Shown here: piece by piece, positions 4,001 to 16,461 of the stretch | How the letters are laid out: each line of letters opens with the position of its first letter | Position numbering within the stretch: the stretch's first letter is position 1 | Virus record (IMG/VR): IMGVR_UViG_3300037424_002232 | Location: 1 to 38,480 of that record | From: a virus | Taxonomy: Duplodnaviria; Caudoviricetes | Reading direction: 5' to 3' (one strand) | DNA length: 38,480 nucleotides | The notes under the pieces: model-generated | What the model was told of the DNA's origin: nothing | The model's input: the letters and a program-made list of their open reading frames with translations, nothing else | Databases searched by the model: none | Position numbers and translations under genes: made by a program

Positions 4001-4786
4001 ATGTTAATCGATATTTTTTATCAAGTAGTGGGCGCAGGCTTTCCGCTGCCAGACGCAGTTATTAATATCAGCAACGTAGCGGCATACGTATACAACACGT
4101 CATCAATGACCACGCTGCCAGAATTGGCAGATGCAATCAGTCTTCGGAGGCCATTCCCCATCACGTGGTTTGAATTCTTGTACAACGGATATCGCATGGG
4201 AATTCTCAGCCAAGAACGTGGCACCCAAGATGGATTGATCGAATGTGAAGATATATTTCTGGTCAAAACAGCCGGCCGCGACGACTTCATCCTGTGCGGA
4301 CGAGAAGTATTCCTATATGACTCTTTGGGCAAGTGGCATAGCGGCGCGAGAAATCAGCGGGTATTAGCCGGGAATCAAGGGCCCAACACGCCACCATCGG
4401 CGCAAGAACAATTAAACATTTTTGACAGGGCCATAACCCAAGGAACCGGCATTCTCTGCGTTGCCCTCAATTTCCTCCACTGCAAAAACGTCGAACTGGT
4501 TGAGAATCGCCTACTCGCCATGGAGGTAAAAGCGAGAAAAAAAGAGAACAAGGACTATTACGAGAAGTTCTACACCCTCAAGATAGGCGGCATCAGGAAA
4601 ATATTGGACACGGAGGGGGAGGCCCAGACGAAGGGACTGAAGCATGCATTGCATGTCTGTCGAGGATACTTCCGCACCACGAACCTCTTCGGGAAATATC
4701 CGGGCACATATTGGATTCCCGCGCACACTCGAGGAGACGAGGAGATCGGCAAAATTCACAAGGATTATCGAATCGAACCACAATAA
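4001..4786 (+). CDS. Hypothetical protein inserted between A and B
   Basis: More AT-rich ORF; C-terminal HVCRGYFR...WIPAHTRG motif; GGAG RBS before ATG 4001. Confidence 0.7.
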   Translation: MLIDIFYQVVGAGFPLPDAVINISNVAAYVYNTSSMTTLPELADAISLRRPFPITWFEFLYNGYRMGILSQERGTQDGLIECEDIFLVKTAGRDDFILCGREVFLYDSLGKWHSGARNQRVLAGNQGPNTPPSAQEQLNIFDRAITQGTGILCVALNFLHCKNVELVENRLLAMEVKARKKENKDYYEKFYTLKIGGIRKILDTEGEAQTKGLKHALHVCRGYFRTTNLFGKYPGTYWIPAHTRGDEEIGKIHKDYRIEPQ

Positions 4787-4797
4787 CGGAGGAGAGC

Positions 4798-5700
4798 ATG
4801 AGCGATCTACGGCAGCAGTTACAGGAATACATAGATGAGAAAAGAGCAAGTCAGTCTGCGATCGGCAAGGCAATAGACTACAGCGGGTCCGTGGTCAGCC
4901 AGTTCCTGGACGGCACGTATAAGGGCGATCTATCGGCCGTCGAAAAGGCCATCAGCGGATTCTTGCTCAGAGAGCGCGAGCGCAAAGCCGCCCCTGAAGA
5001 GAAGATCCCGTTCATCAAAACGTCCATCTACCAACAGGCGTATGACGTTATTCGCTCCTCGGACCTCGTCGGCGAGATCGGCGTCATCTTCGGCGACGCG
5101 GGCCTCGGGAAGACGGAGGCCCTCAATCACTACGCCAGGAGAAACACCAACGTCATTCTGATCGAGGCGCACGTCGGCTACACCGCGCGGGTGCTCATGA
5201 GAAACCTGCATAAGTTCTCCGGCGGAGACGGCATCGGGAACATCACCGATCTGGTGGATGACATCTGCAAGCGGCTCAAGAACGCCACGCGCTGCATCAT
5301 CATCGACGAGGCGGAACACCTGAACCTTCGCTGTCTGGAACTGCTCCGCCATATCCATGACAGGACCGACTGCGGCATGGTGCTCGCCGGCATGCCGAAG
5401 CTGATGGCAAACCTGCGCGGCAAGAACGACAAACTGAAACAACTCTACAGCCGCCTCGGAGACGCCGTCCACCTCGACAAGCTCACGGCCGAGGACACGG
5501 AGAAGATCGTCAGGGCCGCGGTCCCGAACGCGAACGGCGTCTGGAAAGCATTCCACGAACAGTGCAGCGGCAATACCCGCATCCTCGCAAAGTTCATCCG
5601 GCGGGCCAAGCGTATCGCGGCCCGAAATAACTCGGCGGTCACCGAGGTGATCGTCAACAAGATAGCGAGACATCACAAGGAAGTGCTGGGGCTCGCGTAG
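4798..5700 (+). CDS. B: MuB-like transposition AAA+ ATPase
   Basis: N-terminal HTH, Walker A GDAGLGKT, Walker B IIIDEAEHL, QLYSRLG; GGAGGAG RBS. Confidence 0.95.
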   Translation: MSDLRQQLQEYIDEKRASQSAIGKAIDYSGSVVSQFLDGTYKGDLSAVEKAISGFLLRERERKAAPEEKIPFIKTSIYQQAYDVIRSSDLVGEIGVIFGDAGLGKTEALNHYARRNTNVILIEAHVGYTARVLMRNLHKFSGGDGIGNITDLVDDICKRLKNATRCIIIDEAEHLNLRCLELLRHIHDRTDCGMVLAGMPKLMANLRGKNDKLKQLYSRLGDAVHLDKLTAEDTEKIVRAAVPNANGVWKAFHEQCSGNTRILAKFIRRAKRIAARNNSAVTEVIVNKIARHHKEVLGLA

Positions 5701-5714
5701 ATAAGGAGAGAACG

Positions 5715-5963
5715 ATGAGAAAAACAGGAATGAGAATGGATATCGCGTCATTTTTGGCGATCGTGGGCGCATCCGGGCCGCTCCGGCGGTCCTTATTTAA
5801 GATCAATCGCAAGGACCGGCCCAAGGCGAAGCTTATCCGCATCGAGCGGATCACGGCGGGCGGGCATCACGCCTGGTGCGAGTCGAACGTCGGACTGATC
5901 AAGAAGCCGTTGGCGTCGGTGCCGGATGACCTGATCGCGGAATTCAGGAGGAGGGCGGTATGA
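5715..5963 (+). CDS. Hypothetical protein
   Basis: AAGGAG RBS; operon continuity. Confidence 0.6.
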   Translation: MRKTGMRMDIASFLAIVGASGPLRRSLFKINRKDRPKAKLIRIERITAGGHHAWCESNVGLIKKPLASVPDDLIAEFRRRAV

Positions 5964-6139
5964 ACGTCGTCTCGAGAAAAGACCAGCGGGCGCTTCATGC
6001 GATCCGGGTGCGCGAGAGGCGGCTCAGAAAGAAATTACTGCGCGAATTGAGTGAGACGATCAAGCAATCGAACCGCGAGGCGATGTTTATGGATTCGAAC
6101 ACGGCACGGACAGGCGACATCGGGCGGTGCACGTCATGA
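5960..6139 (+). CDS. Hypothetical protein (59 aa, not in ORF track)
   Basis: AGGAGG RBS; ATGA overlaps at both ends; MNVVSRKDQRALHAIRVRERR... Confidence 0.6.
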   Translation: MNVVSRKDQRALHAIRVRERRLRKKLLRELSETIKQSNREAMFMDSNTARTGDIGRCTS

Positions 6140-6375
6140 AGCGGAATAAAAGCACGCTCGATACCAAGCCGCTACAAGCGATCGCGCGGAAACTCGTGTC
6201 GCTCAAGATACAAATAGAGCAAATGGTCCCCGTGGTATTCGATGCAATCGAGGCCGTAGAGAAGAGCCACAGGAACATCGTGGCCGCGCACAAGGCGCAT
6301 CTGACGATGGCGAAACAGGGAAAAGGCATTTCACCGCAGAGAACGCAAAGATCGCAAAGGAAAGCGAATGACTGA
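6136..6375 (+). CDS. Hypothetical protein
   Basis: ATGA coupling to upstream ORF; C-terminus encoded by a repeat arm. Confidence 0.6.
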   Translation: MKRNKSTLDTKPLQAIARKLVSLKIQIEQMVPVVFDAIEAVEKSHRNIVAAHKAHLTMAKQGKGISPQRTQRSQRKAND

Positions 6376-6958
6376 CACTCCGCGACAAGACCGCCCCTCA
6401 CCCCGGCCCTCTCCCTCGAGGGGCGAGGGTGGAAAGAAGAAAGACCTCCGAGCCATCAAGCTCGGCCGGCTGTTCTCTGAGGCGAAGAAGCGGGGCATCG
6501 ACGCTGATCAGCTCCGCAATGAGATCGCGCCGGGGCAGATCGGGAAGAGGCTGTCGAAGGCGAGCGCTGTGGAGATCGAGACGCTCACGAGATACATCGG
6601 GGCTGCCCCCTCACCAACCTCTCCCTCCAGGGGAGAGGCTACAGCCGAACGGCCGCGCATGAGTGGCTTCAAGGAACGCTACGACGAACTCGGGTTCCGC
6701 GACGGGTTTGCCTCGCCGGGGCAGCTCCGGATGATCGAGGCCATGTGGATGGGCGTGTCGCGGATGCCGAATAGAGCGGCCAAGGAAAGGGCTTTACAGG
6801 GCTTTTTAAAGCGCATTGCAGGGGTCGAGGATATGCGGTTCATCGAGGGCTGGATGGTGCAGAAAGTCGTGAAGGCGATAAGGGCGATGCAAGAACCCAA
6901 GGCTGCCACGAAGGCACCAAGGCACGAAGAAAAGCAGAAAAACAAAACTCCTTTTTAG
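6368..6958 (+). CDS. gemA: GemA/gp16-like (DUF1018) protein
   Basis: ASPGQLRMIEAMW...ALQGFLKRIAGVEDMRFI...KVVKAIRAM; position in the early region. Confidence 0.75.
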   Translation: MTDTPRQDRPSPRPSPSRGEGGKKKDLRAIKLGRLFSEAKKRGIDADQLRNEIAPGQIGKRLSKASAVEIETLTRYIGAAPSPTSPSRGEATAERPRMSGFKERYDELGFRDGFASPGQLRMIEAMWMGVSRMPNRAAKERALQGFLKRIAGVEDMRFIEGWMVQKVVKAIRAMQEPKAATKAPRHEEKQKNKTPF

Positions 6959-6972
6959 CCAGGAGGCACGCT

Positions 6973-7488
6973 ATGGAACAGCAAACATGGAACGCAATAC
7001 GAAGTGGTTATTATCGGCTGCAACGGCGGCAACAACGCGAGGCATCGGCGTATCGGGCCGCGAAGCTGGCGCTCATTGCGCTCCTGATCGGGTTGCTTCT
7101 GATCGCGCTCGTTATTCCGGCGCATGCGGAGACTTCCGCGATGGACGAAAAAACTCAGACGATATTGGCGCTCGCCGCCTTCGCCGCCATCGACTACAAC
7201 CAGAGTTGCGACATGTTCTACAGCAGGCAGGGCTACTACGAGATCAATCCCGTCCTCGGCAAGCACCCCAGCCGACGGGGCATGCTCGTCTTCGGTACCG
7301 CGGGCATCGGCCTGCTCTGGGGCGGGGCCGAGATATTGGAGCGCGCAGGATATCCCCGAGCTGCTCGGGTGCTCGTTGACTCCGCGCTGTCCTCCGAGCA
7401 ATGGAACATCGAAGACAACGTGCTCGTGGCCGACGGCAAGCATCGGCGTATCGATGCGATCCCGATCGTACTCACCTGGAGGTGGTAG
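6973..7488 (+). CDS. Hypothetical membrane/exported protein
   Basis: AGGAGG RBS; hydrophobic helices; EINPVLGKHPS motif. Confidence 0.65.
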   Translation: MEQQTWNAIRSGYYRLQRRQQREASAYRAAKLALIALLIGLLLIALVIPAHAETSAMDEKTQTILALAAFAAIDYNQSCDMFYSRQGYYEINPVLGKHPSRRGMLVFGTAGIGLLWGGAEILERAGYPRAARVLVDSALSSEQWNIEDNVLVADGKHRRIDAIPIVLTWRW

Positions 7489-7541
7489 GTCCCAGTGCGG
7501 AATGCGGAGTTCGGAATGCGGAATAAAAGGAGACACAAAAA

Positions 7542-7772
7542 ATGGTAGCTGAGGCATATACCAAAGAGGACGCCGACGCGGTCCTCAAAGAGATCTCCGG
7601 CCTGAGCCGCGCGGCGCGGGAATATGTCGAGCATATCCTGGGCAACGGACTCATGCGCATCCAGCAGGCGTCAACGATCAATCCCGGCCGCGTGGGGGAT
7701 GAGATAGACCGGATCGTGAAGGAACTGACGACCGCGGGGTTTTGGGAACTGCGCAGGTTGAGGGGCATATAG
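7542..7772 (+). CDS. Hypothetical protein
   Basis: AAGGAG RBS. Confidence 0.6.
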   Translation: MVAEAYTKEDADAVLKEISGLSRAAREYVEHILGNGLMRIQQASTINPGRVGDEIDRIVKELTTAGFWELRRLRGI

Positions 7773-8003
7773 ATGAAGAGCAGGGATAAAAGAAGACGAA
7801 GGACAAAGGAGCTGCGGCGGGGGAATGCCCCCTTGCCTCAGTCCTCTCCCTCAAGGGGCGAGGATGGTTACGGCCAGCAGAATACCAACGGCAAGCGTAC
7901 ATGCAAGTGGGACCAGCGGCTGCTCGATATCAGCGTGTGCATCGTGCGGCAGCACCGAAGCAGCCGGACGTGCTTCGGATGTCAATGGCTCAGGAAGCAG
8001 TAA
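7773..8003 (+). CDS. Hypothetical Cys-containing protein
   Basis: Abuts upstream stop; C-terminal CxxC; contains a translated palindromic repeat. Confidence 0.45.
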   Translation: MKSRDKRRRRTKELRRGNAPLPQSSPSRGEDGYGQQNTNGKRTCKWDQRLLDISVCIVRQHRSSRTCFGCQWLRKQ

Positions 8004-8017
8004 AAACAAGGAGGACA

Positions 8018-8518
8018 ATGATGAAACTCTATGACGCAGTTTTGAAAGGCCCGCCCCAATGGACCCGGATAATTTTCTGGACGCTCATCATCCTGATCGC
8101 CGGGATCCAGATCGGCATGTACAAGGGAAAGCTCCTGGCGATCAATGAATCCATCGGGCAGGTGCTCCAGGTCAAGGACCGGGAGATCCAGAAGCTCAAA
8201 GAGGACATTTATGTAGAGCGCGCGAAGCTCAAGATCGTTCTCTGCGAGAGTGACGGCAAGCACGACAACGTCTGGGGCGACGGCGGAAAGTCATACGGCA
8301 TTTGTCAGTTTCAGAAACCCACATTCATCTGGATGCGCGAGCTGGCCGGGCGGCCCGATCTCCGATGGACGATCCGGGACGATCAACTGGCGCTCCTGGA
8401 CTGGGCGCTGCGGAACGGGTATGGGAAGTACTGGACGTGTTTCGGAAAGGCACGAGGGACGAAGGACGAAGGACGATGGACGAGAGAAGCAAAAGCCGGG
8501 AAGGAGGTGAAGCGATGA
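8018..8518 (+). CDS. Membrane-anchored lysozyme-like/transglycosylase protein
   Basis: TM helix, coiled coil, then CES...SYGICQF..PTF...W..C motif; AAGGAGG RBS. Confidence 0.65.
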   Translation: MMKLYDAVLKGPPQWTRIIFWTLIILIAGIQIGMYKGKLLAINESIGQVLQVKDREIQKLKEDIYVERAKLKIVLCESDGKHDNVWGDGGKSYGICQFQKPTFIWMRELAGRPDLRWTIRDDQLALLDWALRNGYGKYWTCFGKARGTKDEGRWTREAKAGKEVKR

Positions 8519-8667
8519 AGCTGAAAGACGCGATGCTCTGCATGGACTGCGACGAGATCGGCCTCGAGGCCACGCACTGCATGGTTTGCGGGTCCCGCGT
8601 GGTGACGCCGCTGGCCCGGTGGGTCCCGCCCAAGGACACGGTCCGGATCCAGGGCATCATGGACTAA
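8515..8667 (+). CDS. Small zinc-ribbon protein
   Basis: CMDC...CMVC; AAGGAGGT RBS; ATGA overlap. Confidence 0.7.
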   Translation: MKLKDAMLCMDCDEIGLEATHCMVCGSRVVTPLARWVPPKDTVRIQGIMD

Positions 8668-8739
8668 GGCGCTCGATATGGCAGGCAAGGCGATGACGAA
8701 ATGATCGCCATAGCGTTCGGATGGACCGTGTATTTATTC

Positions 8740-8797
8740 GCATAACGCTGAGCTGTGGGGCGCGTCCCCCAGCGGCCCCACGAGCGTTTGGTTAGAA
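8740..8797 (-). other. attC-like integron recombination site 1
   Basis: Minus strand TTCTAAC-CAAAC-GCT(C)GTGGGGC...GCCCCACAGC-TCAGC-GTTATGC; 58 bp with R boxes, L stem and an extrahelical base. Confidence 0.75.
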
Positions 8798-8839
8798 ATG
8801 AATTTTGCGCATCGTGCGAAGCACGATAAGGGGTAGACC

Positions 8840-9841
8840 TTGAATGAATTATCTCTCTTCACAGGAGCAGGAGGCGGCGTACTTGGAACAACACTCCTTG
8901 GATGGAAGCACCGGGGATATGTCGAATGGGACAGTTATTGTCAACGAGTCATCCGACAACGAATCCTCGACGGAATCCTTGACGAAGCCCCGATCTTCTG
9001 CGATGTCCGAGCATTCATCAGTGAAGGGTACGCCGCAAGTTATACGGGAATGGTTGATGTCATTACCGCAGGATTCCCCTGCCAACCATTCAGCGTCGCC
9101 GGAAAACGAAAAGGCGTTGACGACGAAAGAAACATGTGGCCAGCGACAGCAGACGTTATTCGGATTGTCCGGCCTCGATTCGTTCTGCTTGAAAACGTGC
9201 CCGGAATACGCGAGTACCTGCCCGTGGTCATCCGAGACCTGCGGCGACTTGGTTACTCCGTTCGCAGACCCCTCATCCTTGGGGCTGGAGATTGCGGGGC
9301 GCCGCACAAGCGAGACCGAATCTGGATTGTGGCTCGGGACACCGAGAGCAACGCAGGCGATCAGGTCGGAACGGTTTGGCAAGGGCAGGACTCCATCACC
9401 GGAAGAGTTTGTGCAACAGTTCCCGACGCCGAAGGCAACGGAACACAAGGGGGGATTTTCGAGCCACGGAGGAACGCCGAGTCTCGGGTGCATGGCGACA
9501 CACGGAATGTGGCCGACACCGAGAGCGGGGAAGACCACGGACGAGAACGAAGAAACATGGATGAAGCGGTACAACGAGGGCAAGGTGAGCACGCCGCCCT
9601 TGACTCTGGCCGTGAAGATGTGGCCCACTCCGACAGTGCAGGATGCGAAGAACAACGGGGCACCATCACAGATGGAACGCAACACGAAGCCCCTGAATGC
9701 CGAGGTTGGTGGATCGTTGAACCCGACGTGGGTAGAGTGGCTAATGGGGTGGCCTCTCGGGTGGACAGACTTAAAGCCATTGGCAATGGACAAGTTCCGC
9801 GAGTGGTTGCGGCAGCATGGGAGATTTTAGCGCGAAATTGA
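8840..9841 (+). CDS. C5 DNA cytosine methyltransferase, alpha-type chain (motifs I-VIII and X)
   Basis: LSLFTGAGG, GFPCQPFS, LLENV, HKRDRIWIVA, RLKAIGNGQVP. Confidence 0.9.
   Translation: MNELSLFTGAGGGVLGTTLLGWKHRGYVEWDSYCQRVIRQRILDGILDEAPIFCDVRAFISEGYAASYTGMVDVITAGFPCQPFSVAGKRKGVDDERNMWPATADVIRIVRPRFVLLENVPGIREYLPVVIRDLRRLGYSVRRPLILGAGDCGAPHKRDRIWIVARDTESNAGDQVGTVWQGQDSITGRVCATVPDAEGNGTQGGIFEPRRNAESRVHGDTRNVADTESGEDHGRERRNMDEAVQRGQGEHAALDSGREDVAHSDSAGCEEQRGTITDGTQHEAPECRGWWIVEPDVGRVANGVASRVDRLKAIGNGQVPRVVAAAWEILARN
8844..9830 (+). CDS. Overlapping +1-frame methyltransferase beta-type chain (motif IX)
   Basis: 328 open codons; (W/F)PTP repeats; LNPTWVEWLMGWPLGWT. Confidence 0.7.
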   Translation: MNYLSSQEQEAAYLEQHSLDGSTGDMSNGTVIVNESSDNESSTESLTKPRSSAMSEHSSVKGTPQVIREWLMSLPQDSPANHSASPENEKALTTKETCGQRQQTLFGLSGLDSFCLKTCPEYASTCPWSSETCGDLVTPFADPSSLGLEIAGRRTSETESGLWLGTPRATQAIRSERFGKGRTPSPEEFVQQFPTPKATEHKGGFSSHGGTPSLGCMATHGMWPTPRAGKTTDENEETWMKRYNEGKVSTPPLTLAVKMWPTPTVQDAKNNGAPSQMERNTKPLNAEVGGSLNPTWVEWLMGWPLGWTDLKPLAMDKFREWLRQHGRF

Positions 9842-9842
9842 T

Positions 9843-9902
9843 TTCTAACGCGCGGATGAGTCGCGCAGCGAAGCGGAGTCGATCTCGATCCGCTGGTTAG
9901 GC
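9843..9902 (-). other. attC-like integron recombination site 2
   Basis: Minus strand GCCTAAC-CAGCG-GAT(C)GAG(A)TCG...CGACTCATC-CGCGC-GTTAGAA; 60 bp with both canonical extrahelical bases. Confidence 0.8.
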
Positions 9903-9931
9903 TGCACGGGGAAACGGGAGGAGGTGACGGT

Positions 9932-10204
9932 ATGGGAATGAAAAACAAACTGATTGATCTGAACGATCATTTGTTCGCTCAGATGGAACGCCTATCGGAT
10001 GAATCGCTAACGGGCGAGAAGCTGAAGGAGGAGATCGACAGGGCAAAGGCCGTGGGAGGCATCGCCACGCATATCATCGGGAACGCGCAGCTTGCCCTGG
10101 ATGCACAGGTAGCGATCAATGATGGCCTTATTAAACGGCCGCCTGCAATGTTGGGGATCACACATGAGCACGACGAAGACAAAAAACCTAAAAAGGTACA
10201 CTGA
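9932..10204 (+). CDS. Conserved phage hypothetical protein
   Basis: [19 protein letters not shown]...EEIDRAKAV; GGAGGTG RBS; this type usually precedes an HNH gene. Confidence 0.75.
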
Positions 10205-11000
10205 TAAGCAGCTTGAATTTCTGCGTGCCGGCTATGCGAGGATGCCGATTTGCAAACTCCTGCCGGCATTCAACAGGAAGTTCGGTTTATCCAAGACCGC
10301 CGATCAACTTCGGTCCACATTCAAGAACCATGGGATCACGTGCGGCCGAAAAGGCAAAGATCGGATTCATCCGGGCGCGCGATTGTATACACCTGCACAG
10401 GTGCGGTTTCTACGGTCCAATTATGCGGGTCGAAACGTGGAGAATCTGACCAAGCTTTTCAATCAGCGATTCAGGGCCAATAAGACGCGCGGACAGATCA
10501 AGACCTTTGTCCATAATCGCGGCATCACCTGCGGGCGCAGCGGCCACTTTGAAAAAGGCAACAGGCCATGGAACACTGGAACAAAAGGGCTGTGCAAGCG
10601 AAACTCCGGATGCTTTAACAAAGGAAACATGCCGGGAAACACCAGACTACTCGGCTCGGAAAGGATCTGCTCTAAGGACGGGTTTATTCTGATAAAGATA
10701 GCGGAGCGCAATCCGTATACCGGGGCACCCACACGATACAAGCACAAGCACGTTTTCTTATGGGAACAGGCGCATGGACCCGTGCCGGCTGGTAAGGTGG
10801 TGGCATTCAAAGACGCAGACCAGACGCACTGTGTTATCGAAAACCTGATGCTGATTTCGCGGGCGGTATTGCTTCGGCTCAACTGGAAACAATATAAAAA
10901 AATGCCGGCAGAGTTGAAGCCGAGCATATTAGCGTTGGCGAAGCTGGAAACAAAGACGGCTGCTCTGTCAAAAAGGTACGACGAAAAGGAGAATGGATAA
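10164..11000 (+). CDS. HNH-type endonuclease domain protein
   Basis: Two N-terminal helical repeats, [34 protein letters not shown]...ENL. Confidence 0.8.
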
Positions 11001-11543
11001 ATGGCAACCATGCAGGACATAGAAAAACAGACACGGGAATTCGCCAAGGCGAAGCGCGAGCTCAACGACATCATGGCGGAGATCGCCACGGAGACGGAGG
11101 TGCTCAAGAAAAAGTACCTCCCGCGGATCCGCTCGGTGATGAATCAGGTTACGGCGCGGCACGGGGACCTCTATCGGGAGATCGCGGAGAACCCGGCGCT
11201 CTTCGATAAGCCCCGGACGCAGACCTTCGACGGCGTGCGGGTCGGCCTCAGCAAGGGCAAGGGCACGCTCCAGATCGAGGACCCGGAGCTCACGATCAAG
11301 CTCATCAGGAAGCACCTGGCCGAGCAGGCGGATATCCTGATCAGGAGCTTCGAGGAGCCGGCAAAGGCCGCGATCAAGAAGCTCGATGAAGCGCTCATGA
11401 AAAAGATCGGCTGCTCCATCGAGGGCAAGGAGGACCGGGTCCTCATCGAGGAAACGGATACGCAGATCAATAAGATCCTCGGTTCGCTGCTCAAATTCCA
11501 GGTCGAGGAGCTTTCCGAGGAGTACCGGGAGGAGGCGGCATGA
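11001..11543 (+). CDS. gam: Gam-like host-nuclease inhibitor
   Basis: ENPALFDKPRTQTFDGVRVGLSKGKG...EEPAKAAIK; early-region position. Confidence 0.75.
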   Translation: MATMQDIEKQTREFAKAKRELNDIMAEIATETEVLKKKYLPRIRSVMNQVTARHGDLYREIAENPALFDKPRTQTFDGVRVGLSKGKGTLQIEDPELTIKLIRKHLAEQADILIRSFEEPAKAAIKKLDEALMKKIGCSIEGKEDRVLIEETDTQINKILGSLLKFQVEELSEEYREEAA

Positions 11544-11764
11544 AACTGACGAGCGACCATAAAAAGGCAATGGCCAGCGTGAAGAACGGCGGTGATGTCT
11601 TCTCATACGAGACGGGCCGCCTGCTTCGGCAGGTCGAGGAGTGCCATCCCGAACTGATAACGATCGGACCGGCAAGGAGCGACATTCCGGGCGAACAGCA
11701 GCAGCCGTACTTTGGGGCCAGATTGACCGCGGCCGGCTGCAGGGCGATCCAGGAGGCCGCATAA
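11540..11764 (+). CDS. Hypothetical protein
   Basis: GGAGG RBS; ATGA overlap. Confidence 0.65.
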   Translation: MKLTSDHKKAMASVKNGGDVFSYETGRLLRQVEECHPELITIGPARSDIPGEQQQPYFGARLTAAGCRAIQEAA

Positions 11765-11943
11765 TGAGCAACGGCAAAGTAGTCACCATGGACGAAGCCA
11801 GGGCCGAGCAATGCCACAACGCGATAGCGGCAGTGCTCGAAAAATATCAGTGTAACCTGGTGACGGAGCAGCGCGTCATCAACGGGATCTGCATGGAGAC
11901 CCGGATCTATTCCGTACCGAGGAAACCGAAACTGCAGCAGTAA
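11764..11943 (+). CDS. Hypothetical protein
   Basis: TAATG coupling; AGGAGG RBS; MSNGKVVTMDEARAEQC... Confidence 0.6.
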   Translation: MSNGKVVTMDEARAEQCHNAIAAVLEKYQCNLVTEQRVINGICMETRIYSVPRKPKLQQ

Positions 11944-11956
11944 AGGAGGCGGCATC

Positions 11957-12148
11957 ATGAAAATGGGAGACGTTAATAAGGTCCAGGATGCGGGATTCCG
12001 AGTGTTTAAGGTGGAATATCAGAAACACCGAATCATGGAGAACTCCGGCCATGGTTCCTGGAAGATGTACAGCACATACGGCTCCATGGCCGCCACGCAA
12101 CGCGCCTGGAAGAAACTCATGGAAGACCCGAAGAACATCGGGGATTGA
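11957..12148 (+). CDS. Hypothetical protein
   Basis: AAGGAGG RBS. Confidence 0.65.
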   Translation: MKMGDVNKVQDAGFRVFKVEYQKHRIMENSGHGSWKMYSTYGSMAATQRAWKKLMEDPKNIGD

Positions 12149-12152
12149 GGGC

Positions 12153-12674
12153 ATGACCTTCGACATCGACAAGACGCCGGAGACCCAGGCGGAGATAGAT
12201 CAGGTCCGCGAAATTCTATGGGCTCAGGCCTGGGAAGTGATGTCCTGCAAAACAAGGGTCACCTGCCCTTGCGGTTTTAAGACGACAATGAACTATGCCT
12301 ACAGGTGCTTTTACTGCGGCGTTTATTTCTGCCGGAAGTGCGCTGAAAGGCATTTTAAAAAGGAGGTGAAACAGATGGACGAACCGATAGATCGTAAATT
12401 CACGTTCTGCGCCACGTGCACAGAACATAGCCACGAGCACAGCCATATGGACGCGATGGTATTCCTGGCGAAGGATAAGGCGCTGCCGGCGACGCTGAAT
12501 TACTACAAGGTCGCATGTGAGGCACGCGGGGCGAAGCCGGAACAGATCAAGGGCATCGAACTGTTGATCCAGCGGGTGTTGCGATACCAGGAGGGGCATC
12601 CGGAGCTGATCAAAGTCGCGGATGTGGATATCCCGGATGTGGCGGGGATACTGGATGAGAACGAAAAGCTTTGA
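12153..12674 (+). CDS. Zinc-finger-containing hypothetical protein, apparent fusion with an internal start at 12375
   Basis: CPC...CFYC..FCRKC...H N-terminal half; in-frame AAGGAGGTG-N6-ATG at 12375. Confidence 0.6.
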   Translation: MTFDIDKTPETQAEIDQVREILWAQAWEVMSCKTRVTCPCGFKTTMNYAYRCFYCGVYFCRKCAERHFKKEVKQMDEPIDRKFTFCATCTEHSHEHSHMDAMVFLAKDKALPATLNYYKVACEARGAKPEQIKGIELLIQRVLRYQEGHPELIKVADVDIPDVAGILDENEKL

Positions 12675-12724
12675 ACCGCGGAGACGCAGAGGCGCGGAGA
12701 AATTTAAAATCGATAGGAGGTCAC

Positions 12725-12955
12725 ATGCACTACAAAAATGGCAGAGAAGCAAAGAACGGGGACAAGGTTATTTTGATTCCCACGTATGGCCCACCGGTCG
12801 CGGGGATCCTCTACGATGCCACGCCGGGCAACGATCACTGCAACGGAAGGATCGCCATCACATCCGCGAATGACCCGTGCCCGAATCTTAAGGAGTGCCT
12901 GCATGCTGATGATGTCAAGGCGGCAGACGTACCGGACATAACAAAGACGGTCTAA
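12725..12955 (+). CDS. Conserved phage hypothetical protein
   Basis: MHYKNGREAKNGDKV...PGNDHCNG...CLHADD; AGGAGGT RBS. Confidence 0.7.
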   Translation: MHYKNGREAKNGDKVILIPTYGPPVAGILYDATPGNDHCNGRIAITSANDPCPNLKECLHADDVKAADVPDITKTV

Positions 12956-12956
12956 A

Positions 12957-13064
12957 GGCCGAAACGGGCGCGCATGGGAATGCTCAAATACTGATAGAGC
13001 GGCGTTTAAACGCCTTGTGAACCATGCAGCCCGTTGATCCGTCACGCGGATCCTGATGATGGCC
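12957..13064 (+). ncRNA. Hammerhead ribozyme, type II
   Basis: GGCC-GAAA-CGGGC...GCCCG-UU-GAUCCG(UCACG)CGGAUC-CUGAUGA-U-GGCC; all three stems and core present. Confidence 0.8.
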
Positions 13065-13256
13065 ATGATTAAAAAAGATGCGCTGGGACGATGTTCATAT
13101 GTCTGGGGAAAATGCACGGAAGCCGAGTGCTGTCGCTATTGCAGCGTTCCAATGTATTGCGACATGGTCTGCTTCAGTTGCCCGCTGGGGTACGATCCGC
13201 TTACCATCGTTCCCGAAAAACCGCTAAGGCTGATAAGCGATGAACGAACAGACTAA
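13065..13256 (+). CDS. Small Cys-rich hypothetical protein
   Basis: Eight Cys in ~63 aa; start 13056, 13059 or 13065 uncertain. Confidence 0.5.
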   Translation: MIKKDALGRCSYVWGKCTEAECCRYCSVPMYCDMVCFSCPLGYDPLTIVPEKPLRLISDERTD

Positions 13257-13632
13257 AATAGATTTCACCGATCGGAAGGCGCCGATCTTGACCGATGAAG
13301 AACGGCGGGTGTGGCTGCATCTCGAGTTCCGGCGCGGCAAAAAAGAGGCAATCCTCGGGCCGGTGCTCTCGAGGATCACCGAGATCGATTACGACACCGT
13401 CCGGGCGATCATCTCGCATCTCGTGAACTTCCACGGCTACCTGATCGCCTCTTGCTCGCGCGGGTACTACGTGCCGGTGACGCCCGAGGAGATCGCCGCC
13501 GCGACCAGATCGCTCAGACATCGGGGGATCATGATCCTGAGGCGGGCGGCCAGGCTGCAGAACAGCAGCCTGGAGGATGTGTTCGGTCAGGGCGTACTCG
13601 AGTACCGCAAGGAGGGCAACGATGCCGCGTAA
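13240..13632 (+). CDS. Winged-helix-like phage protein
   Basis: RRGKKEAILG..L...YDTVRAIISHL...GYLIASCSRGYY. Confidence 0.65.
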   Translation: MNEQTKIDFTDRKAPILTDEERRVWLHLEFRRGKKEAILGPVLSRITEIDYDTVRAIISHLVNFHGYLIASCSRGYYVPVTPEEIAAATRSLRHRGIMILRRAARLQNSSLEDVFGQGVLEYRKEGNDAA

Positions 13633-14086
13633 GAAAATCCTCATCACGGACAAAAAGAAGTACCTCGACTTTGTCTACCTCGCGGAGGAGGAGTATGCAC
13701 TGCTCTGCGCGCTGATCGGAAAGGAAGAGACTGATCATTGGATGGAGGAGCTGAACGGGGCGCTCGGACAGCATGGCTACAAATACGAGAGCCACTACTG
13801 GACGATCAGGAACTGGGCGAGGAAAAAATCAATGCGGAATGCGGAGTGCGGAATGCGGAGTAAAGGCAAGGGTGATGCAGAACGGGCGGCGGAGATCGTG
13901 ATAGAGGCGCTGAAGGACCCGCGCTATCGCAGTATGCCGGAGTTCACGAACAGCGCGCACCAGGCGGCGTATACGGCGCTGGCCAGGATGGGGCTCTCCT
14001 GGCCGGAGCTGAAGCGGCGGATCGGCGTCGAAGGGCCGGAACCGCTGGACGAATTTAAGGCGCAGTTTTTGAAAGGATATAAGTAA
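13622..14086 (+). CDS. Hypothetical protein
   Basis: AAGGAGG RBS; YKYESHYWTIRNW motif resembles phage replication-protein C-termini. Confidence 0.6.
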   Translation: MPRKKILITDKKKYLDFVYLAEEEYALLCALIGKEETDHWMEELNGALGQHGYKYESHYWTIRNWARKKSMRNAECGMRSKGKGDAERAAEIVIEALKDPRYRSMPEFTNSAHQAAYTALARMGLSWPELKRRIGVEGPEPLDEFKAQFLKGYK

Positions 14087-14178
14087 ACCACAGCCCGCCA
14101 CTAAGACACAAAGACACGAAGAATTGCCTTGCTTTTCTTAGAGCCTTAGTGTCTTCGTGGCAAGATTGGGAGTGCGGA

Positions 14179-14469
14179 ATGAGTATCACAGACGGGATCA
14201 TGGCCGCTCTTTTTGTTGGAACAGCATCTTATTGGATAACCGCCTCGGTGAAGCTTTTCAAAAACACTCGAAGGGCGAGGGTGAAACGGGACCCCGAGAG
14301 CGCGGAGATCTGGCGCCGCCTCGAGGCGGCGCAGACAAGGGCTTGTTGTAAAGCCGTGAGGATGGCCCGAGACGAATGGGACATAGCCTGGCTGGATGTA
14401 TCGTTCGAGAAGCGAACGGTGCAGCGGGTGCAACTTAATTACTGTCCGGAGTGCGGGAAGAAATTATAA
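14179..14469 (+). CDS. Hypothetical protein with TM helix and C-terminal NYCPECGKKL zinc knuckle
   Basis: Sequence motifs. Confidence 0.6.
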   Translation: MSITDGIMAALFVGTASYWITASVKLFKNTRRARVKRDPESAEIWRRLEAAQTRACCKAVRMARDEWDIAWLDVSFEKRTVQRVQLNYCPECGKKL

Positions 14470-14617
14470 AACCACAGACGCCACACCCTGCACTCGCGCG
14501 AGGCACTCGTAAGCGCTGGGTGCAGGCAAAGACACCAAGACACAAAGAACTGCCTCGCTTTTCTTGGAGCCTTCGTGCCTTCGTGGCAGGACCTTGGTTT
14601 GGAGTCGGAGGGACACG

Positions 14618-15010
14618 GTGAGCAAAAACAGCATATCGGAACGGCAGCAGGTGCGGGAGAAGCTGGACTGGATCCTCGACATGAAGCGTAAGGACGTTGA
14701 CGCCATCATGCGGACGGAGCTGAACCGGGAAGACCCCTCGATGAAGATGGTCTATGAAGACCTTGGGGTCGAATACTGCATCGGTCTCTGGCGGACGATG
14801 AAAAGCATGCAGCTCTACATCAGCGAGACGCGGCTGAACAATTTGCGCCGGCTGTATGTCCGGCAGAATTTCAATGTCACGAACCCGCTGGGGAGCGCGA
14901 AGGAGCTGGCGGTGCGGCTGGGCGTGTCGGAGAAGTTTATCTATGAAGCGCTCAGTGATGAATCGAAAAGCGATCCACGACAGATCGATGCTTTTGAGGA
15001 AAAACGATGA
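14618..15010 (+). CDS. mor: Mor/C-family transcription activator
   Basis: LGVEYCIGLW...QLYIS...FN...SAKELAVRLGVSEKFIYEAL; end of early region; GGAGG RBS before GTG. Confidence 0.75.
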   Translation: MSKNSISERQQVREKLDWILDMKRKDVDAIMRTELNREDPSMKMVYEDLGVEYCIGLWRTMKSMQLYISETRLNNLRRLYVRQNFNVTNPLGSAKELAVRLGVSEKFIYEALSDESKSDPRQIDAFEEKR

Positions 15011-15018
15011 TAAAGCAG

Positions 15019-15048
15019 TTGACGGCCCCGAGGACGCTGTGCTATATT
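15019..15048 (+). promoter_or_regulatory. sigma70 promoter of the C4-like operon
   Basis: TTGACG, 18 bp spacer, TGcTATATT (extended -10). Confidence 0.7.
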
Positions 15049-15134
15049 AAAAGCGTCGAAACAAACGTAGGGGGCTGTCCTGTGTCTTCGCGTCACGGAT
15101 GCGGAGAGGAGGGTGGTCTCTATTCAGGTGCGAC

Positions 15135-15207
15135 AGCGCACCGAGTGTCCTTGCATCGTAAGGTGCAGGGCAGTTCCCCTACGAACTGCGACAACGCTCG
15201 GTGCGCT
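15135..15207 (+). ncRNA. C4-type antisense RNA
   Basis: 14 bp closing stem, GUAA-capped hairpin, CCCUAC-loop hairpin and CGAC linker, complementary to sites at 15055-15080 and 15225-15249. Confidence 0.75.
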
Positions 15208-15249
15208 TTTTTTGTGTCCGCGCGTGTCGAAAACGTAGGGAGGGCTGTC

Positions 15250-15477
15250 ATGTCTACATTATGGTATCTGCCACAAGACCGCCGCGATGCGGCGGACTGC
15301 ATCGAGAACACCGCAACCGTCATTTCCTTCATTGCCGAGAGCATCGCCTTTTCCAACGAAAAAGAATACCACCTATCCGAGATCAGCTCCGCAGGGCTCT
15401 GCAACATTCTCAGGCTCATCGAGGGCGTGCTCGAAGACTGCAATGAAAAGCTATTGAAGGAGGTGCATCATGGGTAA
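15250..15477 (+). CDS. Small protein under C4-like control
   Basis: ATG directly after the downstream target site, which contains the GGAGG RBS. Confidence 0.65.
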   Translation: MSTLWYLPQDRRDAADCIENTATVISFIAESIAFSNEKEYHLSEISSAGLCNILRLIEGVLEDCNEKLLKEVHHG

Positions 15478-15979
15478 TCCGGATATTTTAAAAGCAGGTG
15501 GAAAAGGCAGGGGCCGCAGTGAATTAATAGCAGCGCTCAAGGGTAAAAAGATGTCTCGGGGCCAGGCGATTAAGGCGAAGTGCTACGAATGCATGCTGGG
15601 TTACGCTGACGGAACGATGGATTGTATGGTTCCGCATTGTCCGCTCTATTATTATATGCCCTATCGGGACAAAAACGCTGCGCGTATACCTATCGTCGGC
15701 AAGCACCATATCGTCCATGGCGGAAAGCTTGCAAAAGGGCAAATGGAATTACGGACACATGTTCTCGAAGGATATAATCTACAGCCAGCCGAGGCCGTGC
15801 TGGCCAAGTGTTATGATTGCATGGGTGGTTACGTCGACGGGAAGTGCGACTGCGCCATCAACGATTGTCCGCTGTATCCATGGATGCAGTACAAGGACAT
15901 CATCTATCCGCATGAAGGTGCGGCGGAGGAACTGGATCCCGGATCAAGCCCGCCCACCCTCACCCCGCCCTCTCCCTGA
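15470..15979 (+). CDS. Protein with a tandemly duplicated Cys4 domain
   Basis: Two copies of AKCY(E/D)CM-GY-DG--DC----CPLY; AAGGAGGT RBS. Confidence 0.75.
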   Translation: MGNPDILKAGGKGRGRSELIAALKGKKMSRGQAIKAKCYECMLGYADGTMDCMVPHCPLYYYMPYRDKNAARIPIVGKHHIVHGGKLAKGQMELRTHVLEGYNLQPAEAVLAKCYDCMGGYVDGKCDCAINDCPLYPWMQYKDIIYPHEGAAEELDPGSSPPTLTPPSP

Positions 15980-15998
15980 AGGCGAGGGAGTAAATGAC

Positions 15999-16034
15999 AA
16001 AGCCCCTTCTCAAAGCATCGAGAAGGGGCTTTTT
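15999..16034. terminator. Probable bidirectional intrinsic terminator
   Basis: 13 bp stem AAAGCCCCTTCTC/GAGAAGGGGCTTT with T tail, between convergent genes. Confidence 0.75.
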
Positions 16035-16461
16035 ATTGCCTCTTAAAGAGGTATTCCATGAGCTTTAATTTGATCTCGCCGATGTCTCTGGCGGTGAGGG
16101 TGCGGACGGGGCGGGCGGGGATGCCGCGTTTGGTGCCGAGTTCGTTATACACGGCGATCAGGTAGTTGCTGCCCACCCTGGCGGCATGCGGGGCAAAGGC
16201 GGACACCCAGGAGTTGTGGGTCTTGCCGCTGACGTGAAGCAGTTTCCCCGGCCAGTGGCCCTTCTTCTCCCGCGCACGGATCGTCGCGGGCGCGAGCGCG
16301 GGCCAGCGGGGGCGGCCTTCCATCTCGAAAGTGTTCTCCACGGCATGGTGCATGATCCCGGCGATCTCTTTCATCACCGGGGTCATGTCGTCGAGCTTCG
16401 CCTCGAGTTGATGGAGGAGCTGGCGGACTTCCTGGTCTATGATTCTGATGGATTCAGTCAT
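16033..16461 (-). CDS. Mu gpG-like virion morphogenesis protein
   Basis: FEMEGRPRWPALAPAT...VGSN...GT..GIPARP. Confidence 0.85.
   Translation of the reverse strand: MTESIRIIDQEVRQLLHQLEAKLDDMTPVMKEIAGIMHHAVENTFEMEGRPRWPALAPATIRAREKKGHWPGKLLHVSGKTHNSWVSAFAPHAARVGSNYLIAVYNELGTKRGIPARPVRTLTARDIGEIKLKLMEYLFKRQ

What the first reader, a model, noticed from the sequence alone, without database searches (positions are those of the whole stretch)
8740..9902. Integron-type gene cassette (two attC sites) inside a Mu-like phage, with the gene in reverse orientation and no integrase
Seen: two attC-shaped sites (8740-8797, 9843-9902) flank the methyltransferase exactly. Extrahelical bases place their top strand on minus, so the gene is antisense to the usual cassette polarity but co-oriented with phage early transcription. 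The inner R boxes are perfect complements (GTTAGAA/TTCTAAC), as expected for one excisable cassette (8746-9848), and extend to an 18/20 inverted repeat (8791-8810 vs 9830-9849). The outer boxes (GCATAAC/GTTAGGC) match 6/7, like a pre-existing solo site. Inference: the phage keeps an attC landing pad and borrows a host IntI to swap accessory genes.
Basis: partly seen in the sequence, partly recalled or inferred. Interest (0 to 1): 0.8.

Follow-up and report, generated by a model that had tools for sequence, protein, structure and literature searches.

The report
Reversed integron cassette in Mu-like phage
A bacterial virus carries a DNA-methyltransferase gene between two integron-type recombination hairpins, facing the opposite way from genes in bacterial integrons; related viruses show the same reversed layout, so these viruses likely swap accessory genes with an integron enzyme, which this one lacks and would have to borrow from its host or another virus.

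Summary
Confirmed. Both sites are attC sites with the top strand on minus (model from bacterial arrays: 43 and 33 bits), so the C5-methyltransferase lies antisense in a 1103-bp cassette. The contig has no intI and no attI match.

The layout recurs. Site 1 sits in three other phage contigs with flanks changing at the R boxes. In 29 loci around a phage-associated IntI clade, 37 of 87 antisense ORFs match phage families, against 2 of 86 top-strand ORFs. In bacterial controls, 31 of 32 cassettes are canonical. Three duplicated cassettes break exactly at the predicted AAC.

A close Mu-like relative carries its own intI and attI. Another, a prophage in a Nitrospirota genome whose host has IntI, lacks intI and ends its array with a near-copy of site 2, an attC type also found in host chromosomal arrays.

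No exact empty allele or circle was found, and the enzyme's source is unproven. Phage CALINs with methyltransferases are published (Qi 2023), but the one I checked is canonical; ten searches found no report of reversed arrays. This scan noted reversed phage arrays before on other DNA.

The parts
8740..8797 (-). attC site 1 (top strand on minus; the predicted recombining bottom strand is the gene-sense plus strand). Its body, from 8746, belongs to the methyltransferase cassette.
   Evidence: 33.3 bits. The 44-nt body recurs with 2-3 mismatches at 4 places in 3 other phage contigs, each with other flanks.
8746..9848 (.). Predicted excisable cassette, 1103 bp: hairpin, leader, methyltransferase gene
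   Evidence: Complementary inner boxes; length; crossover position from three duplicated cassettes in other phages; same cassette family in complete phage integrons L140 and L136.
8791..8810 (+). Left arm of the 20-nt terminal inverted repeat (starts with the inner R box)
   Evidence: 18/20. The homologous cassette of L140 has other letters but 13/13 pairing beyond the R box.
8811..8827 (+). Small 7-bp hairpin in the cassette leader, followed by a ribosome-binding-like run at 8828-8833; possibly an eroded attC tip (inference)
   Evidence: Sequence; a hairpin at the same place in L140 and L253.
8840..9841 (+). C5 cytosine DNA methyltransferase, main chain (333 aa, TTG start); antisense to the attC top strand, same strand as the phage early genes
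   Evidence: PF00145 E 1.3e-33; M.HhaI match E 3e-14.
8844..9830 (+). Overlapping +1 frame, 328 aa; likely a second chain of the methyltransferase, as in M.EcoHK31I
   Evidence: Open +1 frame with a conserved C-terminal motif in 51 of 66 unique homologues; conserved in L140; no Pfam hit.
9830..9849 (+). Right arm of the terminal inverted repeat (ends with the inner R box)
9843..9902 (-). attC site 2, the last site of the array, in the position that attI holds in complete phage integrons; a Nitrospirota chromosomal attC type
   Evidence: 43.1 bits; 31 identical nt with the terminal site of the G077 prophage array; arms shared with host sites.
8515..8667 (+). Upstream backbone gene (50 aa, two CxxC motifs); outside the cassette
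   Evidence: homologues in related Mu-like phages.
9932..11000 (+). Downstream 90-aa gene plus HNH gene; formally the cassette to which the body of site 2 would belong, but no matching right boundary is left
   Evidence: PF13392; no box matching at 6/7 or better in 9902-16100; a single attC lies just before a homologous gene pair in L101.

Best explanation
The methyltransferase gene lies between two integron attC sites with its coding strand on the attC bottom strand, and it is likely a mobile cassette that an integron integrase (IntI) supplied from outside this phage would cut out and insert at the AAC in front of each hairpin. Shown: the two sites, their polarity, the complementary cassette ends, the absence of intI from the contig, exchange of flanks at the R boxes in relatives, and IntI plus attI next to arrays of the same polarity in related phages. 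Inferred: (1) the plus strand folds at both sites when single-stranded, and IntI joins site 1 to site 2, releasing a 1103-nt circle and leaving one attC; (2) site 2, a host-type attC, stays as the anchor into which new cassettes insert by attC x attC; (3) the reversed polarity exists because these arrays sit inside the early operon (intI, where present, is an early gene behind the array), so only genes antisense to the top strand are read, and no internal promoter is needed; (4) the methyltransferase likely shields phage DNA from host restriction. Source of the enzyme, my odds: host chromosomal IntI 45%, IntI of a co-resident phage 35%, own intI lost and the element now frozen 20%.
For: Model hits on minus. 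Site 1 body with other neighbours in 3 phage contigs. Contigs of two sediment runs leave the window sequence at 8742/8743, 8794 and 9850, and what follows 9850 looks like another attC arm (run X1 may be the window's source). Run X2 holds cassette-like DNA (11 differences in 253 nt) but almost none of the phage flanks. Three duplicated cassettes share 60/60 nt after the left AAC and 7-13/30 before it, and 53-60/60 before the right AAC and 8/30 after it; one copy abuts attI. The IntI beside a reversed array in Mu-like phage G003 passes TIGR02249 (271 bits, cut-off 265). 68 of 88 cassettes have perfect inner boxes. PHROG hits: 37 of 87 antisense ORFs against 2 of 86 top-strand ORFs; control arrays have the longest ORF on the top strand in 31 of 32. 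The G077 prophage has an intI-less reversed array ending in a site-2 copy, and its host has IntI. Phage attC sites are IntI1 substrates (PMC9892861).
Against: No exact empty allele and no circle junction were found. Close relatives have no attC at this slot at all (L452/L135, L453, L465, L466). In place, the sites have low computed probabilities of the recombinogenic fold (site 1 0.003-0.008, site 2 0.01-0.09), and Loot 2017 found poor excision with low-pfold sites. In V. cholerae, insertion prefers attI over about 180 attC sites (abstract). The G077 anchor is partly decayed (15.9 bits). Site 1 was not found in 401 Nitrospirota genomes, so only site 2 ties to the host pool. The host is inferred, not known.
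Confidence: 0.72

Rival explanations
1. Frozen relic: an ancestor carried a complete phage integron at this slot; intI and attI were lost by mosaic exchange and the cassette no longer moves.
For: A close relative (transposase 69%, terminase 81%, portal 73%) carries attC-cassette-attI-intI in its early region. The same cassette family is first in line at attI in L140. The unit downstream of site 2 has lost its right boundary. Low pfold in place.
Against: Both sites keep R boxes, L boxes and the extrahelical base, and the inner boxes are 7/7. No intI remnant. The relative's integron is at another slot. The G077 prophage repeats the intI-less layout with the same terminal site at a third slot.
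Confidence: 0.2
2. The hairpins are used by a recombinase other than IntI (for example an Xer-type enzyme), or cassettes move by homologous recombination between shared attC bodies.
For: No IntI in the contig. The intI-less array of G002 lies in a contig whose only tyrosine recombinase is an ordinary phage integrase. attC bodies are shared between phages.
Against: Breakpoints fall on the AAC, not inside the shared body. Near-identical site-1 bodies lie in an array headed by a TIGR02249-positive IntI and attI.
Confidence: 0.05
3. An ordinary cassette: the top strand is plus and the gene has the usual polarity, or the hairpins are terminators or chance.
For: The gene stops just before an AAC box, as in ordinary cassettes; the sites are near-palindromes and both strands fold with similar energy.
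Against: Minus scores 43 and 33 bits, plus 13.6 or less; 0 strict hits in 60 shuffles; duplicated units carry the hairpin in front of the gene, not behind it; neither site is terminator-like.
Confidence: 0.03

Closest known systems
Phage CALINs (clusters of attC lacking an integrase), Qi et al. 2023, PMC9892861 (main text and supplement part 1 read)
   Same: Two or more attC sites in a phage without intI; DNA methyltransferase genes as cargo; their sites recombine with IntI1.
   Different: The CALIN of phage TJE1 has its genes on the attC top strand, here the gene is on the bottom strand. The paper's text does not describe reversed genes as a rule, a phage IntI clade or a host-type anchor. I did not check PH101, P12002L or MW202573; the figures and the Dryad file were not seen.
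Canonical integrons (IntI, attI, Pc, attC cassettes); Nivina et al. 2016, PMC5027507 (passages read)
   Same: Same attC anatomy and AAC crossover. In the related phages intI, attI and attC have the usual relative geometry.
   Different: Genes face intI and would be read from the phage early operon rather than from Pc. The window has neither intI nor an attI match. Single antisense cassettes with their own promoter are known in bacterial arrays (recalled); here antisense is the rule.
SALINs and attG off-target insertion, Loot et al., bioRxiv 10.1101/2022.09.11.507474 (passages read)
   Same: IntI can drop a cassette into a genome outside an integron and leave a lone attC, a plausible origin for site 2.
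   Different: Described for bacterial chromosomes. Reuse of such a lone attC as a collecting point in a phage is not in the passages I read.
M.EcoHK31I two-chain C5 methyltransferase (PMC2836561, passages read)
   Same: A second polypeptide encoded in another frame inside the main gene; the main chain has motifs I-VIII and X.
   Different: That the +1 product supplies motif IX is my reading from recalled motif likeness; Pfam gave no hit and the target sequence is unknown.

Membership tests
attC site | R'' AAC / R' GTT boxes, 5-6 nt spacers, paired L boxes with an extrahelical base at position 4 of L'' | tested here: met
   both sites, on minus; L pairing 7/7 and 6/7.
attC site | Covariance-model hit on one strand | tested here: met
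   43.1 and 33.3 bits with a home-built model from 23 bacterial-array sites; IntegronFinder's own model was not available.
attC site | Bottom strand recombined by IntI as a folded single strand | not testable with these tools
   Needs an assay. Computed pfold 0.003-0.09 in place and 0.18-0.27 for the predicted circle junction.
integron gene cassette | Unit bounded by complementary core sites, one gene, no promoter | tested here: met
   7/7 inner boxes; no sigma-70-like promoter in 8400-10300.
integron gene cassette | Mobility with breakpoints at the core triplet | tested here: met
   For the family. For this exact slot no empty allele or circle was found.
integron gene cassette | Gene on the attC top strand (usual polarity) | tested here: not met
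   Gene on plus, top strand on minus; the long minus ORF has no PHROG hit.
CALIN | At least two attC sites within a few kb and no intI | tested here: met
   the contig's right end is missing.
complete integron | intI gene | tested here: not met
   PF00589: 0 candidates in G000; tblastn best E 6.9.
complete integron | attI site | tested here: inconclusive
   A pattern from the phage-IntI clade finds nothing in the window but recovers only 19 of 39 clade loci.
Mu-like transposable phage | DDE transposase, MuB-type ATPase, GemA, Gam, DUF935 portal | tested here: met
   (Gam-like hit just under the Pfam cut-off).
two-chain C5 methyltransferase (M.EcoHK31I type) | Second chain in an overlapping frame, needed for activity | tested here: inconclusive
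   Frame open and motif conserved in 51 of 66 homologues; need for activity not testable here.

The most novel reading that the evidence does not exclude
Temperate phages of Nitrospirota and Desulfobacterota run their own mirror-image integron economy. They turn ordinary early genes into cassettes by putting a shared attC body in front of them, trade them through phage-encoded IntI/attI platforms, and integrase-less members such as this one domesticate a captured host attC as a landing pad and borrow IntI in trans. Phages would then be a place where cassettes are made, which opens the question of cassette origin to a direct test.
Probability: 0.35. Interest if true: 0.85.

Novelty: new variant of a known kind. 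Interest (0 to 1): 0.7.

Why it matters
Integrons are treated as bacterial platforms, and recent work casts them as stores of anti-phage genes. Here the same recombination grammar is used from the phage side, with cargo typical of counter-defence (13 DNA methyltransferases and a Lar-like protein among 37 annotated cassette genes). The reversed polarity keeps phage cassettes readable in phage operons and predicts that they would be silent behind a bacterial Pc, which would separate two cassette pools that share enzymes and attC types. The same attC body fronts unrelated genes, and the methyltransferase family is mostly not in cassettes elsewhere (an attC hit at 1 of 79 homologue loci). This gives paired cassette and non-cassette versions of a gene for studying how cassettes arise, a long-open question. 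It also predicts that coding-strand cDNA cannot be the direct source of the recombining strand in these cassettes (inference).

Tried and rejected
Rfam: nothing meaningful (3 hits, E 2.8-6.6). Strict attC scan of 115 loci around methyltransferase and 9932-gene homologues: 0 hits; with model R2, 1 of 79 methyltransferase loci. A single-protein scan for the G003 IntI returned only itself; the alignment worked. A gapped pattern for site 2 was too loose (about 2400 estimated matches) and was not used. Empty allele at this slot: not found in L452/L135, L453, L454-457 or five Nitrospirota prophage stretches; these are too distant (about 70-78% nucleotide identity at best) for a base-level comparison. 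Circle junction or joint 8745-9849: not among the listed joints; only contigs were available, 73% of run X1 was read, and most of the methyltransferase was uncovered there, which proves nothing. No RNA holder listed. Site 1 not found in the 401 Nitrospirota genomes searched. No promoter-like site; one terminator-like match, fewer than in shuffles. Pfam gave nothing for the +1 frame even at E 10. GenBank phages: 7 records with an IntI match, all under 38% identical to the clade query; no record covers the cassette. The IntI tree is the quick tree only. No structure or complex prediction was run. Rejected: canonical polarity, terminators, chance.

Full report
1. The observation. The window is a whole viral record of 38,480 bases, a Mu-like phage by its transposase, MuB-like ATPase, GemA, Gam-like and DUF935 portal genes; its right end is cut inside a tail gene. 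My anatomical scan gave four relaxed hits in the window, of which site 1 alone passed the strict rule, met by 0 hits in 60 shuffles; site 2 has a 6/7 L box. As an independent test I picked 23 short sites from loci around bacterial-type IntI genes and built a covariance model. In those control loci the longest ORF lies on the top strand in 31 of 32 cassettes. The model scores site 2 at 43.1 bits and site 1 at 33.3 bits on minus, against 13.6 for the plus strand of site 2 and 8.2 for the best other place. The gene between them is a C5 methyltransferase on plus, so it is antisense to the top strand. No tyrosine recombinase is in the contig, and no promoter-like site lies around the cassette.

2. 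The site is mobile and recurs in phages. An 18-mer of site 1 occurs in three other viral contigs. The 44-nt body appears at four places with 2-3 mismatches, and the flanks differ left of the AAC and right of the GTT every time. Two of these contigs hold arrays of five and eight sites, all of one polarity, with methyltransferase and other small genes mostly antisense to the top strand. In sediment runs, contigs leave the window sequence at 8742/8743, 8794 and 9850. A 52-nt unit of the site-1 core has depth 42.5 against 12-14 for the phage flanks, one contig joins the cassette's head (to 8838) to its tail (from 9815) across an unknown middle, and another methyltransferase start follows the same leader. 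Run X1 may be the window's own source and these are contigs, so this shows shared ends, not rates. No empty or circular junction was listed.

3. Polarity from breakpoints. Three duplicated cassettes in three phages are identical for 60/60 nt after the left AAC on the gene-sense strand and unrelated before it (7, 10, 13 of 30). At the right end they match up to the AAC (53, 60, 60 of 60) and not after (8 of 30 each). In G003 one copy abuts attI and the other an attC. The hairpin therefore travels in front of its gene, as expected if the gene-sense strand is the recombining bottom strand. This fixes the window's cassette at 8746-9848.

4. Some related phages carry the enzyme. Mu-like phage G003 has a 344-aa tyrosine recombinase directly behind its array, on the early-gene strand; it passes the integron-integrase model TIGR02249 (271 bits, cut-off 265). 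An alignment of it and 68 relatives fetched 40 viral, 80 metagenome and 80 genome loci. A conserved attI-like stretch starting at an AAC precedes these intI genes. From model hits I delimited 87 cassettes in 29 such loci, 86 of them unique; I left out duplicate loci, hits in intI-less contigs and lone hits without a partner, and several attI boundaries were mis-called. With the window's cassette, 68 of 88 have perfect inner boxes; 74 of 87 have their longest ORF antisense to the top strand. Of the best antisense ORFs 37 of 87 match PHROG families, 13 of them DNA methyltransferases; of the best top-strand ORFs 2 of 86 do. For 15 genome or metagenome loci I scanned 33 of 113 candidate flanking proteins: 12 loci have head or packaging genes, 3 only primase, integrase or RecT. 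The genome loci are titled Geobacteraceae, Pelobacter, Desulfobulbales or Deltaproteobacteria. In a quick tree of 105 proteins these IntIs fall in one 46-row clade (SH-aLRT 94) that also holds one long-branch outsider; they were fetched by likeness to the query, so the clade is partly built in. The window's cassette family itself (same leader, same tail) sits in two complete phage integrons, L140 and L136, with different attC bodies.

5. Close relatives and the anchor. L135/L452 (transposase 69%, terminase 81%, portal 73%) has attC-cassette-attI-intI behind its Mor-like gene and no attC at the window's slot; L453 has none. Of 94 portal relatives 8 bear an organism name: 6 Nitrospirota, 2 Deltaproteobacteria. 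Five of 401 Nitrospirota genomes hold a homologue of the 13240 gene, and 3 of the 5 have an IntI over the cut-off on other contigs. One of them, G077, has a related Mu-like prophage with a reversed array of three sites and two cassettes, no intI in the prophage contig, and a last site that shares 31 identical nt with window site 2 but is followed by other genes and is partly decayed. A 17-mer of site 2 hits 11 of 401 genomes (control pattern 4); six hits are attC-like. Four of them share both arms with site 2 and belong to host cassettes in the usual polarity, among them toxin-antitoxin cassettes and an eight-site array. Site 2 is thus a host-type attC that two related phages keep at the end of the array, where complete phage integrons have attI. 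Against a simple host origin of everything, site 1 was not found in those 401 genomes, and a Nitrospirota prophage (G373) carries a reversed array with its own IntI of yet another lineage.

6. How it most likely works. By established integron chemistry (Nivina 2016, passages), IntI cuts the folded bottom strand at the AAC. Here that strand is plus. Pairing site 1 with site 2 would release a 1103-nt circle and leave one attC. The 20-nt inverted repeat extends the stem of the circle junction (-27.0 against -15.3 kcal/mol; pfold 0.27 against 0.18), and L140 keeps this pairing with other letters (13/13), so it may favour re-insertion (inference). In place the sites fold poorly (0.003-0.09), so excision would be rare. 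The reversed polarity follows from position: the arrays lie in the early operon, so genes must face the way of early transcription. It also puts the recombining strand on the lagging-strand template when replication runs with transcription, which raises excision (Loot 2017, passages); the direction of Mu-type replication is recalled, not tested. The cargo is likely anti-restriction. An overlapping +1 frame is open with a conserved end motif in 51 of 66 homologues, which suggests a two-chain enzyme like M.EcoHK31I.

7. What is known. Qi et al. 2023 found 17 CALINs and 3 complete integrons in 10,705 phage genomes, with five methyltransferase cassettes, and showed IntI1 activity on five of six sites. 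Phage CALINs with methyltransferases are therefore known. TJE1, which I re-examined, has the usual polarity. Lone attC sites by off-target insertion are known in bacteria. Ten full-text searches (one was on the methyltransferase) gave no paper on reversed phage arrays or a phage IntI clade; I saw most hits only as listings, the library lacks most subscription papers, and Qi's figures and Dryad file were unseen. Seven notes of this scan describe reversed arrays in other phage genomes (read after I had formed this reading); they are unchecked and are not counted as evidence.

8. Verdict. A real CALIN with one intact cassette, member of a phage-side variant of integrons in which genes are antisense to the usual polarity. 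It works like an integron cassette but fails the usual polarity and is not a complete integron. New variant of a known kind; interest 0.7. The open steps are activity, the enzyme's source and whether site 2 still accepts cassettes.

Noticed in passing
window 8844-9830 (+1 frame inside the methyltransferase gene): A 328-aa overlapping frame, open with a conserved end motif in 51 of 66 homologues; likely a two-chain methyltransferase family common in phages.
   Followed up: partly
L458 (GenBank KX853513, Virus Rctr41k) 4680-10101; also L155-L158: An IntI-like gene annotated as xerD with about 130-nt attC-like sites downstream of it, top strand on minus and genes on plus; a second IntI lineage (close to a Chloroflexi genome hit) with reversed cassettes. 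Heuristic hits only; model R2 missed these long sites.
   Followed up: partly
L494 (G373:C42), IntI at 10779-11720: Nitrospirota prophage with its own IntI (39% to the G003 enzyme) and a reversed array of about seven 90-nt attC sites: a third lineage.
   Followed up: partly
window 12381-12674 and 12707-12955: Two early genes are homologous to cassette genes of L262 and L175 but have no attC here: the same genes exist in and out of cassettes.
   Followed up: partly
L101 2211-2258: A single reversed attC with the same outer boxes as window site 1 lies just upstream of a homologue of the 9932 gene and a frameshifted HNH gene.
   Followed up: partly
L117 4914-4320 and 2212-1635; L118 3776-4438 and 5222-5884: Duplicated cassettes that carry their own sigma-70-like promoter and small helix-turn-helix-like genes; in L118 the gene is on the top strand, an exception to the reversed rule.
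   Followed up: no
L174 573-1202: A reversed cassette that encodes a short tyrosine recombinase (209 aa); a homologue lies outside the array in the G373 prophage.
   Followed up: no
window 8701-8745: A 14-codon ORF ends with the TAA of site 1's left box, as 57 of 87 cassette ORFs end at their right box; it may couple translation up to the array.
   Followed up: no
window position 8806: Contigs of both runs have C for T here, which turns a mismatch of the terminal inverted repeat into a pair.
   Followed up: no
L001 4744-5294: The nearest methyltransferase homologue (60%) has no attC and is interrupted by an inserted ORF with HNH-like cysteine motifs.
   Followed up: no
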